Virus record (IMG/VR): IMGVR_UViG_3300028886_000059
Location: 52,415-116,414 of that record
DNA length: 64,000 nucleotides
Direction: 5' to 3' (one strand)
Origin: a virus
Lineage: Duplodnaviria > Caudoviricetes
A model generated the notes under the pieces. The model searched no databases, had not been told where the DNA came from, and saw only the letters and a list, made by a program, of their open reading frames with translations. Of this stretch, positions 4,071 to 39,051 are shown piece after piece (position 1 is the first letter of the stretch; each line of letters begins with the position of its first letter). The translations under genes were made by a program, and so were the position numbers.

Positions 4071-4847
4071 TTACTCCTCCTCCAGTTCTATGTCATCCGA
4101 CTGCAAGTTTTCGGGCATTTCCGTCTTGGTGGTTATGCCGTGCTCGTAGTCGAAAATCAGTTTTTCGCAATATGGGAACTCCTGCAAGCACCTTTGATAG
4201 TCACGCGGGTAGTTCTTTCTAAGAAACAGCAGATGGTCGAGGTCTATAGCCAAACCCTGCGACACATTGCCCTTCACGTATTCCAGCGGCCTAATCAGAG
4301 ACTTCGCCTTGATGTACTGCAACACCTCGCCGTTAGTCCACACGGCCAGCGGGTAAACCATGCCCTTCTTGGTCATGTATGTACCGTTCTGCTTCTTGAA
4401 CATCAGCAGACGCATACGCTTCATGTAGCCATCCACGCCCTTCATGCCGCTAAAGGCATAGGGTACGCCAGTTTCCTGCCTTACCTGTTCCTCGATTTCG
4501 CCGATGGAGCGCATACGCAGGTGGTTCGGGTCTTTCTTCGGCAGCAGATAGCGGGGGTCGGGGTCGCAGAAGAATCCTCCTGCCTTGAATGCGTCATGCT
4601 GAAAATGCAGGATTTTCCGTACTTCGACATTCTTGTAATGCTTCTCAGCCCAATCAATGTAAGGCTGCACATGGTCGCAGTTGTTCACAAGGTACATGTA
4701 ATAGCAGATGACCTTCGGGAATGTCGTTGCCAGCATCTCCAGCAGGGCGATGCCGTCTTTGCCACCAGCCGAATAGAATAGTACGGCAGTGTCGGTCTTT
4801 TCGCGGATGCCCTTGATGATGGCCATTGTCTCTGAATACTTGCTCAT
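4071..4847 (-). CDS. PAPS-reductase-like PP-loop protein
   Basis: SAGGKDG PP-loop variant, SGMK..DG..KR, YPLAVWT. Confidence 0.8.
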   Translation of the reverse strand: MSKYSETMAIIKGIREKTDTAVLFYSAGGKDGIALLEMLATTFPKVICYYMYLVNNCDHVQPYIDWAEKHYKNVEVRKILHFQHDAFKAGGFFCDPDPRYLLPKKDPNHLRMRSIGEIEEQVRQETGVPYAFSGMKGVDGYMKRMRLLMFKKQNGTYMTKKGMVYPLAVWTNGEVLQYIKAKSLIRPLEYVKGNVSQGLAIDLDHLLFLRKNYPRDYQRCLQEFPYCEKLIFDYEHGITTKTEMPENLQSDDIELEEE

Positions 4848-4868: not shown

Positions 4869-5537
4869 TTAGTTTGAGCCGCCCAAAGCTGTACGCAAGG
4901 CAGCTGCTATCGTATTTCCGCTACCTCGGCGCAATACCCTTTCGCGGTCACTCATCATCCTATCCCAATCATCGTATGTCTTAACCCTGTCAAGGTTGAT
5001 TTCCCTGCTTGGGCTATAGCTTCGCATCATTGCCGACAATCCTTTTGGAAGGGTCATGGCAACGACGGGGAGGCGTGTGCGGCCATCCCAATCAGACGGT
5101 GCTAAATCGTCATCCCATTCTACTTTTCCGATGGCTTTAGCACCATATTTCGCATACATATTCTGTAATCCACCACCATAGCAATCCAGCTTTCGGCCAC
5201 CCCTTGCAGAAGCGAATGCCATGATGTTGGGCATCCTTCCGCGTGTCCTGCTGAATACGGCCTCCACATTGCCGTCGCTTGTTATGGCGAGTCCTGTCTT
5301 GTGGTCTTTAGAAAGGTAATAAGCCGTGCCACTGTTACGGTTATTCCTGAACTGTTTCTTTGTATGGGTGTCAACCATCCAGCCGTGCCTGTTTTTCTTC
5401 TTGGCATAGTTGATGGCATTCTTGAAAGCCTTTGGCGTTGCACGTTCAAATTCTACATGAGAATGACGAATACCCTTTCTTGTCAGGGCATTCTCGACGC
5501 GCTTGTTTGCTTTTTCAATATCGCTTATGTACCTGAC
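4869..5537 (-). CDS. GNAT-like protein, proposed GTC start (222 aa; first ATG at 5378 gives 169 aa)
   Basis: Frame is open 53 codons upstream of the ATG, back to GTC at 5537, and fills the gap to the upstream gene; GGRKLDCY..LQNMYAKYG resembles GNAT motifs. Confidence 0.65.
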   Translation of the reverse strand, partial: VRYISDIEKANKRVENALTRKGIRHSHVEFERATPKAFKNAINYAKKKNRHGWMVDTHTKKQFRNNRNSGTAYYLSKDHKTGLAITSDGNVEAVFSRTRGRMPNIMAFASARGGRKLDCYGGGLQNMYAKYGAKAIGKVEWDDDLAPSDWDGRTRLPVVAMTLPKGLSAMMRSYSPSREINLDRVKTYDDWDRMMSDRERVLRRGSGNTIAAALRTALGGSN

Positions 5538-5550
5538 TCAGCCGTTCCGT

Positions 5551-5748
5551 TTACATTGTCAAAATATCAGCCATCAATTCAGGGCTGCTATAATCCATGT
5601 CACTATCCAGCGAATCATCGCTGGGGCTGTCTGCCAGTTTTCTTGCCTCATCCTCTGTCAGGTAAGGCTTTCCATTCTCCTTGATTTTGCAGAGCTCCTC
5701 AAAAAGACGCTGGCGATATTCAGCAATCTGTTCTTTCGTATGCTTCAT
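5551..5748 (-). CDS. Small acidic hypothetical protein
   Basis: 65 aa ORF behind its own promoter. Confidence 0.7.
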   Translation of the reverse strand: MKHTKEQIAEYRQRLFEELCKIKENGKPYLTEDEARKLADSPSDDSLDSDMDYSSPELMADILTM

Positions 5749-5767
5749 TGTTGTTCAATTAATAGTG

Positions 5768-5799
5768 CAAAGATAAAGCAAATAAATTGATTTACCAAA
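5768..5799 (-). promoter_or_regulatory. Bacteroidetes sigma-A promoter
   Basis: TTTG (-33) and TATCTTTG (-7). Confidence 0.7.
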
Positions 5800-5856
5800 T
5801 ATTTTTCGTTATTTTTTGTTGCATATTACTTTATTTAACTCTTCCGCTAAATCAGA

Positions 5857-5894
5857 ATGGCCACCACCATCATTTTGCTGACGGCGATGGCCAT
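5857..5894 (-). terminator. 16-bp RNA hairpin after the small basic ORF
   Basis: ATGGCCATCGCCGTCA-GCAAAA-TGATGGTGGTGGCCAT with three G:U pairs. Confidence 0.55.
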
Positions 5895-5915
5895 GAGGTC
5901 GGCTCAAGGCAACCT

Positions 5916-6170
5916 TTAGCCCTCAGAGCCTGCGGCAGCACGAAGGGCGGCGGAGCGCAAGGCTGCACCACGAACACCACGCGCCCGCATAGCGGCTACG
6001 TTCTGACGTGCTTGTCGGGCGAATGCCACACGAAGGTCTTGACGACGCTGTTCACGGTTTCCCCAACCTGCACGGCCAGCCGCATAACGGCCACCATTTG
6101 CCAGTCGGCGACTACCTGCACCGTTCACGTTTGACGTGATACCAGTGATTCGATTGATTCTGTTTCTGAC
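5916..6170 (-). CDS. Small Arg/Ala/Gly-rich protein, proposed GTC start (84 aa)
   Basis: Frame open from GTC 6170: VRNRINRITGITSNVNGAGSRR...AAAGSEG; the only in-frame ATG lies far downstream. Confidence 0.65.
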   Translation of the reverse strand, partial: VRNRINRITGITSNVNGAGSRRLANGGRYAAGRAGWGNREQRRQDLRVAFARQARQNVAAMRARGVRGAALRSAALRAAAGSEG

Positions 6171-6203
6171 TCAGCATTCAAATTAAAGGGTTCGACATTA
6201 TTG

Positions 6204-6614
6204 TTAGTTGTCTGAATGGGCATCCTGTTCCTCGTCGAAGATTTCACAGTTCTCTTTCTGCATGACTTCGCCGAGTTCATACTGCATTTGCGTAACATAG
6301 TAGGTCTCGCCGTTATCCACGAAGGTAAGCGGCTCGCCAGTCTTTTCGTCATCCATCTGAACGACCTTAATCCCAACGACCTGCACCAGCAGACGGGGGG
6401 CATTCTTCTGACGGCCATTGATAAGCTGCAAGGCATCGTAGCCCACAACCTCGACATCGCTTGTGCCGTCGCCGTTGTCCTTTTCCACCAAATACTGCTT
6501 GGCGTTACGCGGGTAAACAAAGCGGTGCTCGACCTTTTGCTCACCCTTCAAGATTTTCTTGAAACTGTCGCGCTTGATTTGTAGCGTCAGTACATCTAAT
6601 CCTTCTAAATTCAT
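6204..6614 (-). CDS. ASCH/PUA-like domain protein
   Basis: LTLQIKRDSFKKILKGEQKVEHR resembles the ASCH GxKxxExR motif. Confidence 0.7.
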   Translation of the reverse strand: MNLEGLDVLTLQIKRDSFKKILKGEQKVEHRFVYPRNAKQYLVEKDNGDGTSDVEVVGYDALQLINGRQKNAPRLLVQVVGIKVVQMDDEKTGEPLTFVDNGETYYVTQMQYELGEVMQKENCEIFDEEQDAHSDN

Positions 6615-6647
6615 TTCAATTCCGATTTAATTGTTACTATAATTTTG

Positions 6648-6720
6648 TTGCGGGAGCAGGGCTCGAACCTGCGACCTCCAGTAAGTCAAACTGTTAAGCT
6701 ACCAACTGCTCCATCCCGCG
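6648..6720 (-). tRNA. Initiator-type tRNA body with GAC (Val) anticodon
   Basis: CGCGGGA TG GAGC AGTTGGTA GCTT A ACAGT TTGACTT ACTGG AGGTC GCAGG TTCGAGC CCTGC TCCCGCA A; C1:A72 mismatch, A11:U24, A73. Confidence 0.85.
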
Positions 6721-6884
6721 ATTTTCGGCAAAGTTACACATATTACTATTGTCATGTGAATCTATACCTACATTATGTTTCACCAATTTATATTAGTGAA
6801 AGAATCGCGGTGTTTTGCAGCTATTTCACTTCCATCTATTCAATCATTTTGCTTTATATTTCACCCAGCGGGCGCATTTATATT

Positions 6885-6999: not shown

Positions 7000-7932
7000 T
7001 TACCATTCCGCAAAGATGTTATGACTGGCATTCACGACTTGCACGGAGTACTGAACACGGCCATCCACCTTGTTTCTGATGCTGTCTTTCCAGTATATCC
7101 TCGACTTCGGGGCTTTCGCTGCCACAATCTCCTGCACGTCATTGACGAACTTCACTATGCCGTCAAGCGTGATTGGCTTCTTGTTGTGCTTCTTGCCGCT
7201 TTCCAGCCCTATCTTATAGACATCGCAGAATCCCAATGTGGCCTTTATCATCTCCAGCGAATCATCCAAGTCTATCACAGGCTCGATGCTGGCAAAGGTA
7301 TGAACGCCGTATTCTTTGACCTTCGCCATCGCTTCCACACGCTGCATGTTCGTTGACGCATTCGGCTCAAGGTCATCCCTGCCTGTCAGCGTGAAACCGA
7401 CGCACAGGTTCTTACCGCCATTGACCAGCAGACGATGCCCACCGATTCCGTACACCCACTCCGAGCGTTTCGTCAGCATGGTAACTGGCACTGGAGGCAA
7501 ATCGTTTCTTCTGCTTCCATCCTCGTTACACCCCAATGCGATATAGGCACACCGCATGAATGTATAGAAGGTATCGACTGGCTGCTGTAGGCACGGGTCG
7601 CTGCTGAACGTAAAGAAGATGCCACGGCCATCTGCCATGATTCTTCCCCTGTACTTATCCAGTTCCTTCTCAAATACCTGCACGGCCTTGTTACATCCTA
7701 CGATGAATGCGAGTTTTCTTGAAGCGTCGCAGTCATTCTTGAACTTGACATCCTTTGCCGTCAGCTGAAACTCCTTTTTCAGTTGCGGGATTTTCTGACC
7801 CATTCCGTGACCTAACACGCCTTTCTTGCAGTAGCAATACTCACAGTCGTTTGAACACCCGACAAAGATATTTGCCGCCCAAGGAGCGTATTCGCGGGCT
7901 TTTCCCGCTGGCTGATACACAATTTTTCCCAT
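7000..7932 (-). CDS. Radical SAM protein
   Basis: CSNDCEYC (CxxxCxxC); SIEP motif. Confidence 0.85.
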   Translation of the reverse strand: MGKIVYQPAGKAREYAPWAANIFVGCSNDCEYCYCKKGVLGHGMGQKIPQLKKEFQLTAKDVKFKNDCDASRKLAFIVGCNKAVQVFEKELDKYRGRIMADGRGIFFTFSSDPCLQQPVDTFYTFMRCAYIALGCNEDGSRRNDLPPVPVTMLTKRSEWVYGIGGHRLLVNGGKNLCVGFTLTGRDDLEPNASTNMQRVEAMAKVKEYGVHTFASIEPVIDLDDSLEMIKATLGFCDVYKIGLESGKKHNKKPITLDGIVKFVNDVQEIVAAKAPKSRIYWKDSIRNKVDGRVQYSVQVVNASHNIFAEW

Positions 7933-11064: not shown

Positions 11065-11405
11065 TTGACCCTCCTATAAATCATTCCGTCGCAGCTGCCC
11101 TTGGTGTAGTCAGTACCCACGCCATAGTAGGGATGCTTGCAGTCGTTTTTCTTTCTAAAGCAACAACCCTCACAGCAATGCTTACTATTGCTTTCCGTCT
11201 GCTGGTAGGTCTTGCCGTCATGCGTAAACCTGATGTACTTCTTTCGCCACGGTGCTTTGCCGTTGATTTCGTCGGCTGCTTCATGCACGGCCTTATTCAG
11301 CTTTGCCAGCACACCGTATTTCAATAATCTGTTGGCATAGCTGGTGACTTTGATTGTACCGTCATCATTCGTGATGACCTCGCACTTATAGATATTCCGT
11401 TTCAT
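11061..11405 (-). CDS. Hypothetical protein
   Basis: Stop/start overlap. Confidence 0.65.
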   Translation of the reverse strand: MKRNIYKCEVITNDDGTIKVTSYANRLLKYGVLAKLNKAVHEAADEINGKAPWRKKYIRFTHDGKTYQQTESNSKHCCEGCCFRKKNDCKHPYYGVGTDYTKGSCDGMIYRRVK

Positions 11406-38672: not shown

Positions 38673-38688
38673 CTTCTTTTCCTTTTAG

Positions 38689-38759
38689 TTGGAGAAACGG
38701 GAGTCGAACCCATACAAACAGACCCAAATTCTGTTGTGCTACCATTACACCATTCTCCA
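38689..38759 (-). tRNA. tRNA-Gln(TTG)
   Basis: TGGAGAA acceptor, ACAGA-ATTTGGG-TCTGT, GGGTTCGACTCCC. Confidence 0.9.
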
Positions 38760-38979
38760 GTATGACGGCCTTTTGAGCCGCCCACCTTGAACACCGCCAT
38801 GTCGTCACCGTCAACAGCCGCAGGATTTAAGCGGCCATCCACCCACATGTTACCCTTTCCGATTTTTTGGGGATTGCGCAGATACTCTCACATGCTTTAG
38901 GCTCGCTTTCGGTATAGGTCGCGCCCCTTAACGCTTCCAAATGTACTCGCTTGTGGTGCGTGTTCTGATACAAGACTTG

Positions 38980-39051
38980 TAGCCACAGGCAGAATCGAAC
39001 TGCCCTTCCAAGGTTGAAAACCTTGTGTCCTAACCGATAGACGATGCGGCC
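38980..39051 (-). tRNA. tRNA-Glu(TTC)
   Basis: GGCCGCA acceptor, CAAGG-TTTTCAA-CCTTG, GGCAG-TTCGATT-CTGCC. Confidence 0.92.

What the first reader, a model, noticed from the sequence alone, without database searches (positions are those of the whole stretch)
4869..6720. Candidate private translation-initiation system: initiator-type tRNA(GAC) plus two linked genes opening on GTC
SEEN: the tRNA at 6648-6720 has an fMet-type body (CGCGGGA start, C1:A72 mismatch, A11:U24) but the anticodon loop UUGACUU. Two ORFs downstream on the same strand begin with GTC directly after an in-frame TGA, in the identical context GCTGA-GTC-AG (GTC at 6170 and 5537). These starts add 14 and 53 stop-free codons to the ORF-track calls. 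They also leave normal gaps of 33 and 13 nt to the upstream genes. The mRNA heptamer GAGUCAG can pair with all 7 loop bases (5 Watson-Crick, 2 G:U). KNOWN: C1:A72 and A11:U24 are formylation/initiator determinants; A35, C36 and A73 are ValRS determinants; engineered E. coli tRNAfMet with a GAC anticodon is valylated and initiates at GUC. INFERENCE: the phage makes these two proteins depend on its own tRNA, acting as an orthogonal start codon or timing switch. CAVEATS: only G30:C40 of the three initiator G:C anticodon-stem pairs is present; near-cognate ATA, ATT, CTG and GTG codons exist in frame; CTGAGTCAG is also a DNA palindrome.
Basis: partly seen in the sequence, partly recalled or inferred. 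Interest (0 to 1): 0.96.

Follow-up and report, generated by a model that had tools for sequence, protein, structure and literature searches.

The report
Phage starter tRNA reading GUC starts
A rumen phage of Bacteroidota carries a start-type (initiator-like) tRNA whose anticodon reads the valine codon GUC, and two nearby genes begin at GTC instead of ATG. This looks like a natural, virus-owned start codon, and I found no published description of one.

Summary
The tRNA at 6648-6720 (-) has an initiator body (C1:A72, G2:C71, C3:G70, A11:U24) and the loop UUGACUU. Two genes 0.5 and 1.2 kb downstream open TGA-GTC-AG.

Comparative data support the reading.
- At least 108 IMG/VR contigs and 37 Bacteroidota genomes carry such tRNAs, with anticodon GAC or AAC.
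- Within the context GA-NNN-RG, GTC is the outstanding start-like codon in GAC loci (36/46). GTT is that codon in AAC loci (17/34).
- The small Arg-rich gene that matches ORF1 starts GTC with GAC (26) and GTT with AAC (13). There is one GAC/GTT wobble case and no AAC/GTC case.
- The second gene (GNAT fold) starts GTC, GTT or ATG in relatives. No such tRNA was found beside the ATG forms.
- The flanks (GA before, AG after) can pair with U37, U38, U33 and U32. The second codon is AGA and never CGN, which points to an RNA-level constraint.

New here: an ASCH-domain gene follows the tRNA in 85 of 85 distinct loci.

Main caveats: the three anticodon-stem G:C pairs of true initiators are missing, and nothing has been tested at the bench.

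This scan had already flagged the same system on other genomes. I found no published natural case, only engineered E. coli i-tRNA(GAC) and i-tRNA(AAC).

The parts
6729..6736 (-). Bacteroidota-type -7 promoter element TAACTTTG, 8 nt before the 5' end of the tRNA
   Evidence: Read; conserved in L002. That the motif TAnnTTTG is the Bacteroides -7 element is from my own knowledge. The sigma-70 scan found nothing convincing.
6648..6720 (-). Initiator-like tRNA with anticodon GAC and loop UUGACUU (U37, U38). It has C1:A72, G2:C71, C3:G70 and A11:U24, and lacks the three anticodon-stem G:C pairs.
   Evidence: Family covariation: 94.4% of cells paired, 12 pairs with compensatory changes, 0 of 500 shuffles as good, 1:72 unpaired in 22 of 23 sequences.
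6204..6614 (-). ASCH-domain (PUA-like) protein of 136 aa with an ATG start, 33 nt after the tRNA. It is a constant partner of the tRNA.
   Evidence: phrog_625. Pfam ASCH in 15 of 31 homologues. Model pLDDT 90; top Foldseek hits are ASCH proteins with probability 0.98 but E about 0.03. A homologue lies directly after the tRNA in 85 of 85 distinct loci.
6166..6172 (-). Start motif GA-GTC-AG of ORF1, complementary to all 7 bases of the tRNA loop; GTC is at 6170-6168.
5916..6170 (-). ORF1: Gly/Arg-rich protein of 84 aa predicted to start at GTC (Val-Arg...). It is the third constant member of the module.
   Evidence: 38 distinct homologues all open GA-GTY; an in-frame TGA comes directly before in 36 of them; no conserved canonical start.
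5857..5894 (-). 16-bp hairpin followed by a U-rich tail; likely terminator of the tRNA-ASCH-ORF1 transcription unit
   Evidence: conserved in L002 and L004.
5768..5799 (-). Second Bacteroidota-type promoter: TTTG (5799-5796), 20 nt, TATCTTTG (5775-5768)
   Evidence: Read; conserved in L002, L004 and L005. The consensus is from my own knowledge.
5551..5748 (-). 65-aa gene with an ATG start that ends ...ATG-TAA 13 nt before the GTC of ORF2. It is in a different frame from ORF2.
   Evidence: homologues precede ORF2 in L002, L004 and L005.
5533..5539 (-). Start motif GA-GTC-AG of ORF2; GTC is at 5537-5535.
4869..5537 (-). ORF2: GNAT-fold protein of 222 aa predicted to start at GTC. The ATG at 5378 would remove the first helix-strand-helix of the fold.
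   Evidence: Relatives start GTC, GTT or ATG according to the tRNA present.

Best explanation
The phage encodes a second initiator tRNA. It derives from the Bacteroidota tRNA-fMet and keeps the acceptor and D-arm features that mark a tRNA for formylation and keep it away from EF-Tu. Its anticodon arm has been rebuilt: the anticodon is GAC and positions 37 and 38 are U.

Inferred steps: host ValRS charges it with valine (A35, C36, A73); host formyltransferase probably formylates it; and it is placed in the ribosomal P site on GUC codons that sit in the context (U)GA-GUC-AG(A). The flanking bases can extend the codon-anticodon helix to U37 and U38 on one side and U33 and U32 on the other. That would pick these few GUC codons out of the hundreds of internal ones, and may make up for the missing three G:C pairs.

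In this phage two genes depend on it. One is a small Gly/Arg-rich protein (5916-6170). The other is a GNAT-fold protein (4869-5537). Both lie just before the DNA-packaging genes. The tRNA has its own promoter and is followed by an ASCH-domain gene that accompanies it in every lineage, which is probably a dedicated helper whose role is unknown.

Shown here: the tRNA structure and its conservation; the GTY starts; the codon/anticodon covariation; the linkage with ASCH.

Inferred: valylation, formylation, P-site use, the 7-base pairing, and the biological purpose (gating these genes on phage tRNA expression).
For: (1) Initiator marks are conserved. Across 23 distinct tRNAs from several body lineages, 1:72 is unpaired in 22, and G2:C71, C3:G70, A11:U24 and A73 are invariant. 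The cloverleaf is supported by 12 compensatory pairs. The D arm and acceptor start match the host tRNA-fMet.

(2) The system is widespread. So do 37 species genomes, nearly all Bacteroidota.

(3) Codon specificity. In the context GA-NNN-RG, the share of sites that look like starts is GTC 36/46 and GTT 15/63 in GAC loci, with every other codon at most 12/261. In AAC loci it is GTT 17/34, and GTC is not among the top 14.

(4) ORF1 family. There are 26 GAC/GTC, 13 AAC/GTT, 1 GAC/GTT and 0 AAC/GTC modules. The anticodon changed at least 4 times on the ASCH tree, and the start codon followed in 3 of 3 independent pairs.

(5) ORF2 family, by locus. It starts GTC beside the GAC tRNA (window, L001, L002). 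It starts GTT beside the AAC tRNA (L122, L356). It starts ATG with no such tRNA in L117, L118, L120 and L355.

(6) No canonical alternative. TGA directly precedes GTY in 36 of 38 ORF1 homologues. The first ATG/GTG/TTG lies anywhere from codon 11 to 49 or is absent.

(7) Ribosome-binding signal. GGAGG lies exactly 8 nt upstream in 31% of GTY starts, against 5% of ATG starts in the same loci.

(8) RNA-level flanks. The second codon is AGA in 81 of 155 sites and never CGN, although CGN makes up 40% of Arg codons elsewhere in the same ORFs. No initiator-like GAC tRNA with a base other than U at 37 was found.

(9) Precedent. E. coli i-tRNA G34C36 (GAC) is valylated, formylated and initiates at GUC (PMC2268962). 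i-tRNA-AAC initiates only at GUU (bioRxiv 10.64898/2025.12.21.695813). Position 37 of tRNA-fMet pairs with mRNA position -1, shown with A37U and A37G variants (PMC10018350).
Against: The three consecutive G:C pairs of the anticodon stem are absent in all 23 tRNAs. In E. coli an i-tRNA with these pairs mutated is still formylated but does not work in initiation (PMC6393288). The host tRNA-fMet has them. So either something compensates, or the tRNA works in some other way.

For ORF1 of this window a conserved GTG exists at codon 15, and the aligned codon is ATG in some relatives.

The independent covariation events are few: 3 pairs, sign test p = 0.25. Many of the GTY-start genes are paralogues, so the counts and the fixed Shine-Dalgarno (GGAGG) spacing are partly inherited.

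One ORF2 relative (L121) has neither the motif nor a tRNA in its 18-kb contig.

There is no protein, Ribo-seq or tRNA-charging evidence.
Confidence: 0.8

Rival explanations
1. The host initiator tRNA-fMet starts these genes at canonical or near-cognate codons: GTG at codon 15 of ORF1; ATA, ATT or CTG early in ORF2; or weakly at GTC itself, as in Streptomyces sigR. On this view the phage tRNA is unrelated and serves as an elongator supplement for GUC or as a variant that resists host anticodon nucleases.
For: A GTG at ORF1 codon 15 is conserved in the window, L002 and L004, and aligns with ATG in L236 and L242. ATA and ATT occur at ORF2 codons 4 and 7. A natural GTC start read by the normal initiator is known (PMC5472188). 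Phage tRNAs with altered loops that evade host nucleases are known (PMC10264068). GTC is a common Val codon in this phage, 28% of Val codons.
Against: The near-cognate codons of ORF2 are not conserved: ATA becomes AGA in L002, and L004 has none before codon 15. In 24 of 38 ORF1 homologues the first canonical start lies beyond the first third of the frame or is absent. This view does not explain why the start codon follows the anticodon. Nor does it explain the 7-base complementarity, the 1:72 mismatch in 22 of 23 tRNAs, or U37. An elongator would be expected to pair at 1:72 and carry a purine at 37.
Confidence: 0.08
2. GAGTCAG is a regulatory element rather than a start site. It could be a protein-bound DNA operator, an RNase processing site, or a site where the tRNA loop pairs with the mRNA leader as a trans-acting RNA. 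Translation would then start by some other route.
For: CTGAGTCAG is a near-palindrome in this window. The 60 nt after the ORF1 motif are almost identical between the window and L004, although their proteins are only about 50% identical. In an RNA library, a contig covering 5898-6210 stands at higher depth than its neighbours.
Against: Across lineages only GAGTCAG is conserved, not the left arm of the palindrome. It is strongly strand-specific: 91 on the tRNA strand against 5 on the other in 1 Mb. The frame opens exactly at GTY, with a stop directly before it, and indels keep that frame. GGAGG lies at a fixed start-like distance. No other start is available in most family members.
Confidence: 0.07
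3. Recoding from an upstream frame: a frameshift, ribosome bypass or stop-codon read-through joins an upstream ORF (for example ATG-CTG-AGT-CAG before ORF1, or the 65-aa gene before ORF2) to the GTC frame.
For: An ATG or TTG lies 7 nt before the GTC of ORF1 in the window, L002 and L004, in another frame. The gene upstream of ORF2 always ends ATG-stop close to the motif.
Against: The upstream ATG/TTG is missing in most other lineages. The frame of ORF2 relative to the upstream gene differs between relatives: +1 in the window, in frame in L005. Further in-frame stops lie just upstream. A recoded TGA gives no sensible upstream protein.
Confidence: 0.03

Closest known systems
Engineered anticodon mutants of E. 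coli initiator tRNA-fMet: G34C36 (GAC, starts at GUC) and i-tRNA-AAC (starts at GUU)
   Same: The initiator body is kept while the anticodon is changed to GAC or AAC. The tRNA is charged by ValRS, formylated by the host enzyme, and initiates at GUC or GUU (PMC2268962; bioRxiv 10.64898/2025.12.21.695813). Both natural variants found here use exactly these two anticodons.
   Different: The engineered ones are laboratory constructs that keep the three G:C pairs and A37. The natural tRNAs lack the G:C pairs, have U37 and U38, use an extended start context (GA...AG), come with a constant ASCH partner gene, and serve a defined set of phage genes.
Canonical bacterial initiator tRNA-fMet (here that of Bacteroides)
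   Same: C1:A72 mismatch, G2:C71, C3:G70, A11:U24, and the same D arm, variable loop and T loop.
   Different: The anticodon is GAC, not CAU. The loop is UUGACUU, not CUCAUAA. The anticodon stem is A:U, G:C, U:A instead of three G:C pairs. The amino acid is presumably Val, not Met.
Stop-codon recoding by phage-encoded suppressor tRNAs (crAss-like and Lak phages; from my own knowledge)
   Same: A phage-borne tRNA changes how a codon is read for a subset of phage genes, so those genes depend on phage tRNA expression. Gene finders mis-call the genes.
   Different: That system acts at stop codons during elongation. This one acts at the start of translation, with an initiator-type tRNA.
Extended (quadruplet) pairing between initiator tRNA position 37 and mRNA position -1
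   Same: A37U and A37G variants of tRNA-fMet favour mRNAs with the complementary base at -1 (PMC10018350). Here U37 faces an A at -1 that is constant in the motif.
   Different: Here complementarity extends to 7 bases (-2 to +5), and it is inferred from conservation, not measured.
GTC start codon of Streptomyces sigR
   Same: A natural gene that starts at GTC (PMC5472188).
   Different: It is read inefficiently by the normal initiator and repressed by IF3. No dedicated tRNA is involved.

Membership tests
Bacterial initiator tRNA | Mismatch at 1:72, which keeps the tRNA from EF-Tu and is the main formylation determinant | tested here: met
   C1:A72 in the window. The position is unpaired in 22 of 23 family members, as C:A, C:U, C:C, A:A, U:U or U:C.
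Bacterial initiator tRNA | G2:C71, C3:G70 and A11:U24 (formyltransferase determinants in E. coli) | tested here: met
   Invariant in 23 of 23 sequences.
Bacterial initiator tRNA | Three consecutive G:C pairs at 29:41, 30:40 and 31:39 | tested here: not met
   The window has A:U, G:C, U:A. In the family, 29:41 is mostly A:U, 30:40 is G:C or C:G, and 31:39 is U.G or U:A. The host tRNA-fMet has all three pairs.
Bacterial initiator tRNA | Anticodon CAU with A37 | tested here: not met
   The anticodon is GAC or AAC, with U37 and U38. No member with GAC and a base other than U at 37 was found.
Bacterial initiator tRNA | Formylated aminoacyl-tRNA that binds the P site with IF2 | not testable with these tools
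   This needs biochemistry. The phage itself encodes no formyltransferase or deformylase.
Elongator tRNA-Val | ValRS identity elements A35, C36 and A73 | tested here: met
   Invariant in 23 of 23 sequences. That these are identity elements is from my own knowledge and from PMC2268962.
Elongator tRNA-Val | Paired 1:72 and a purine at position 37 | tested here: not met
   1:72 is mismatched and position 37 is U.
ASCH domain (PF04266), for the gene at 6204-6614 | Match to the Pfam model, and a PUA-like beta-barrel fold | tested here: inconclusive
   The window protein itself has no Pfam hit. Of 31 homologues, 15 match ASCH, best E 4e-5. Top Foldseek hits are ASCH proteins with probability 0.98 but E 0.03 and TM about 0.4.
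GNAT acetyltransferase superfamily, for ORF2 | GNAT fold; acetyl-CoA binding motif | tested here: inconclusive
   All top Foldseek hits are GNAT enzymes (best E 5.5e-4, probability 0.97 or higher, TM about 0.4). There is no Pfam hit. The cofactor motif was not examined.

The most novel reading that the evidence does not exclude
Bacteroidota phages carry a whole class of private initiator tRNAs. In this class a helix of 5 to 7 bases between the anticodon loop (U32, U33, NNN, U37, U38) and the mRNA replaces the three-G:C / IF3 checkpoint, and an obligatory ASCH protein acts as a dedicated factor. Different phages set different start codons: GUC, GUU, and perhaps AGG, AGU or AGC. That would give them a hidden layer of gene control and a set of genes that annotation pipelines cannot see.
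Probability: 0.4. Interest if true: 0.97.

Novelty: categorically new. Interest (0 to 1): 0.93.

Why it matters
As far as I know, every known case of bacterial translation initiation uses one initiator, tRNA-fMet(CAU). A natural second initiator, carrying another amino acid and its own start codon, would be a new kind of departure from the standard decoding rules. It would be the start-codon counterpart of phage stop-codon recoding.

It would show how a virus can make chosen genes unreadable without its own tRNA.

It would explain a class of phage genes that gene finders truncate or miss. The small client proteins match no PHROG family.

It would also offer synthetic biology a ready-made orthogonal initiation system that evolution has already tuned: loop context, loss of the G:C pairs, and a helper protein.

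It is directly testable, because the module sits in prophages of cultured strains. Examples are Parabacteroides goldsteinii DSM 19448, Bacteroides mediterraneensis Marseille-P2644, Dysgonomonas macrotermitis DSM 27370 and Paramuribaculum intestinale DSM 100749.

Tried and rejected
Alternative genetic code (TGA read as a residue): rejected. Further in-frame TGA or TAA codons lie just upstream, and no sensible protein results.

Palindromic DNA operator: rejected, because only the strand-specific core is conserved.

Raw counts of 7-mers are confounded by strand composition. I replaced them with the start-like test. An unbiased tally of the first codon after a stop gives the same top codons, but it is noisy.

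The search for related loci with the broad ASCH alignment failed. With a narrower alignment it returned only near-identical copies of one abundant lineage: 74 of 74 with the tRNA, but these are not independent.

Sequencing runs: the stretch is held by bovine and sheep gut runs, including RNA libraries. These are contigs, so they show neither transcript ends nor expression levels.

PDB sequence search with the ASCH profile found nothing meaningful.

PHROG search of ten client proteins found nothing.

The phage genome has no formyltransferase or deformylase gene.

Literature searches found no natural non-AUG initiator tRNA.

L121, an ORF2 relative without the motif or a tRNA, remains unexplained.
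Full report
**1. What is in the window**

The window is part of a 116-kb phage genome, about 98% complete. Its DNA is found in bovine and sheep gut runs. On the minus strand, just before the ParB-like, small-terminase and large-terminase genes, the order is:
- a Bacteroidota-type -7 promoter box;
- a tRNA (6648-6720);
- a 136-aa gene (6204-6614);
- a short Gly/Arg-rich frame (ORF1, 5916-6170);
- a 16-bp terminator hairpin (5857-5894);
- a second promoter;
- a 65-aa gene;
- ORF2 (4869-5537).

ARAGORN and Rfam both call the tRNA. Its sequence shows C1:A72, G2:C71, C3:G70, A11:U24, A73 and the loop UUGACUU. Only G30:C40 remains of the three initiator G:C pairs. Its body hits phage tRNA-Met genes. 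Outside the anticodon arm it closely matches the tRNA-fMet of Bacteroides. Both ORFs open GCTGA-GTC-AG directly after an in-frame TGA. The first canonical starts are 14 and 53 codons further on.

**2. Do the proteins really begin at GTC?**

*ORF2.* PHROG 2563 and 15 database homologues align well upstream of the ATG at 5378, to about codon 12.
- In a relative at 84% identity (L002) the start reads TGA-GTC-AGA-AGG. That is one extra codon, and the frame is kept. The ATA at codon 4 of the window is AGA there.
- In a relative at 50% identity (L004) the start is CGA-GTC-AGT with four fewer codons, again in frame.
- The AlphaFold model (pLDDT 82) places residues 6-48 as helix-strand-helix at pLDDT above 90. 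All top structural matches are GNAT acetyltransferases. Starting at the ATG would cut off part of the fold.

*ORF1.* I collected 38 distinct homologues.
- All open GA-GTY.
- 36 have TGA directly before the GTY.
- The first ATG/GTG/TTG lies anywhere between codon 11 and 49, or is absent.

For the window's own ORF1 the GTG at codon 15 remains a possible second start.

**3. The tRNA is a widespread, selected family**

The hits comprise 13 distinct sequences from several body lineages. The same pattern with TAAC in the loop (anticodon AAC) hit 41 stretches, about 30 of them tRNAs. Thirty-seven species genomes, nearly all Bacteroidota, carry one. These include type strains of Parabacteroides, Bacteroides, Dysgonomonas, Paramuribaculum, Hallella and Chryseobacterium.

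On an alignment of 23 distinct tRNAs:
- the cloverleaf is 94.4% paired, with 12 pairs showing compensatory changes (0 of 500 shuffles as good; slid controls at most 43%);
- 1:72 is unpaired in 22 of 23;
- G2:C71, C3:G70, A11:U24, A35, C36, U37, U38 and A73 never vary.

A search for the same tRNA with a base other than U at 37 found no tRNA at all.

**4. The start codon follows the anticodon**

In 1.0 Mb of GAC-tRNA loci, GAGTCAG occurs 91 times on the tRNA strand and 5 times on the other. Nearly every occurrence opens a 50-85-codon Arg-rich frame.

I used the other 63 codons as an internal control. Within GA-NNN-RG, I counted the sites that follow a stop within 6 codons and open at least 45 codons:

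| Loci | GTC | GTT | Any other codon |
|---|---|---|---|
| GAC tRNA | 36/46 | 15/63 | at most 12/261 |
| AAC tRNA | not among the top 14 | 17/34 | the highest count is 8/28 |

(All.) This is what G34 (reads C, and U by wobble) and A34 (reads U) predict.

For the constant ORF1 gene the modules are 26 GAC/GTC, 13 AAC/GTT, 1 GAC/GTT and 0 AAC/GTC. On a tree of the linked ASCH protein the anticodon changed at least four times. In the three phylogenetically independent pairs the start codon changed with it. That is too few pairs for significance (p = 0.25).

ORF2's family shows all three states:
- GTC with a GAC tRNA: window, L001, L002;
- GTT with an AAC tRNA: L122, L356;
- ATG directly after the upstream stop, with no such tRNA within 10 kb or in the contig: L117, L118, L120, L355.

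**5. The context around the codon**

Logos of all start-like GTC sites, chosen without regard to flanks, show G at -2, A at -1, A at +4 and G at +5 in 58-69% of sites. GTC sites in AAC loci show only background. These flanks are complementary to U38, U37, U33 and U32.

The second codon is AGA in 81 of 155 sites and never CGN, although CGN makes up 40% of Arg codons elsewhere in the same ORFs. The constraint is therefore on the RNA, not on the amino acid.

This fits published evidence that position 37 of tRNA-fMet pairs with mRNA position -1. That evidence includes an A37U variant that favours A at -1 (PMC10018350).

Internal GTC codons are common: 28% of Val codons in this phage. Some extra context is therefore needed for specificity. 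In the whole genome only the two reported sites combine the motif with a long frame.

GGAGG lies exactly 8 nt upstream of 31% of GTY starts, against 5% of ATG starts in the same loci. Part of this is shared ancestry among paralogues.

**6. A constant protein partner**

In 85 of 85 distinct loci with enough sequence, the gene that begins 16-60 nt (142 nt in one locus) after the tRNA is a homologue of the window's 136-aa protein, down to 29% identity. It is an ASCH-domain (PUA-like) protein:
- Pfam ASCH matches 15 of 31 homologues;
- the model has pLDDT 90;
- the top Foldseek hits are ASCH structures at weak E-values.

I also searched from the protein side in 401 Bacteroidales genomes. The three closest homologues all lie in genomes with the tRNA, two directly beside it and one on another contig. 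Distant ASCH paralogues do not. The partner's role is unknown.

**7. Mechanism and caveats**

The simplest reading is a natural version of the engineered systems. E. coli i-tRNA G34C36 is valylated, formylated and initiates at GUC (PMC2268962). i-tRNA-AAC initiates only at GUU.

The main difficulty is the missing three G:C pairs. In E. coli they are needed for initiation, though not for formylation (PMC6393288). The extended helix or the ASCH protein may compensate, but that is inference.

The phage encodes no formyltransferase or deformylase, so host enzymes would act.

No expression evidence could be drawn from the public runs.

**8. Novelty**

Five literature searches found engineered systems and the sigR GTC start, but no natural initiator tRNA with a non-CAU anticodon.

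Earlier notes of this scan report the same system on other genomes, and an AGC/GCU variant. I reached the main results before reading them, and they agree.

I rate the finding as real and of high interest. My confidence in the mechanism is about 0.8.

Noticed in passing
L184:11208 (tRNA near 11075); also L195, L169, L170, L171, L175, L198, L201: IMG/VR also holds initiator-like tRNAs (1:72 mismatch, U37 and U38) with anticodons CCU, ACU and CAU. In L184 a 67-codon basic frame with no canonical start opens TGA-AGG-AAG about 60 nt after the tRNA(CCU). This hints at further private start codons.
   Followed up: partly
window 5898-6210: In one metatranscriptomic run, a 313-nt contig covers exactly the ORF1 leader through to the terminator hairpin, at depth 63. 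Neighbouring contigs stand at 5-10. Contigs cannot show RNA levels or ends, so this is only a hint of an abundant discrete RNA.
   Followed up: no
window 6126-6138 (-): A small hairpin CACGU-CAA-ACGUG holds the GTG of ORF1 codon 15 in its 3' arm. The 60 nt after the GTC are almost identical between the window and L004, although their proteins are about 50% identical.
   Followed up: no
L012, L028, L011, L019, L107, L014, L058, L241, L254 (client genes): The small GTY-start proteins share an N-terminus of Val-Arg followed by basic residues, and a C-terminus of Gly-Leu-Ser-Asn/Gly-Gly. Several paralogues occur per phage. None matches a PHROG family. Their function is unknown.
   Followed up: partly
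L086 and L253, about 790 nt after the tRNA: In a Dysgonomonas prophage lineage, the PAPS-reductase-like gene opens TGA-GTC-AGT. This is the homologue of window 4071-4847, which starts ATG here. Membership of the GTC-start gene set therefore differs between phages.
   Followed up: no
window 7000-7932 (-): A radical-SAM-like gene (weak Pfam hits to Radical_SAM and SPL) lies just upstream of the tRNA promoter. It is also present in the close relative L002.
   Followed up: no
L356:13692-14245: A contig with the AAC tRNA and a GTT-start GNAT gene ends in a formyltransferase gene (Formyl_trans_N/C). It may be a host gene beside the prophage.
   Followed up: no
window 38688-39051 (-): The window holds two further tRNA genes, Gln(UUG) and Glu(UUC), far from the module.
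   Followed up: no
L121:9162-9279: An ORF2 relative has 38 stop-free, homologous codons before its called ATG. It has no GA-GTY-RG motif (it reads CAA-GTC-GAG, with an ATA at codon 2) and no tRNA in its 18-kb contig. This case is unexplained.
   Followed up: no
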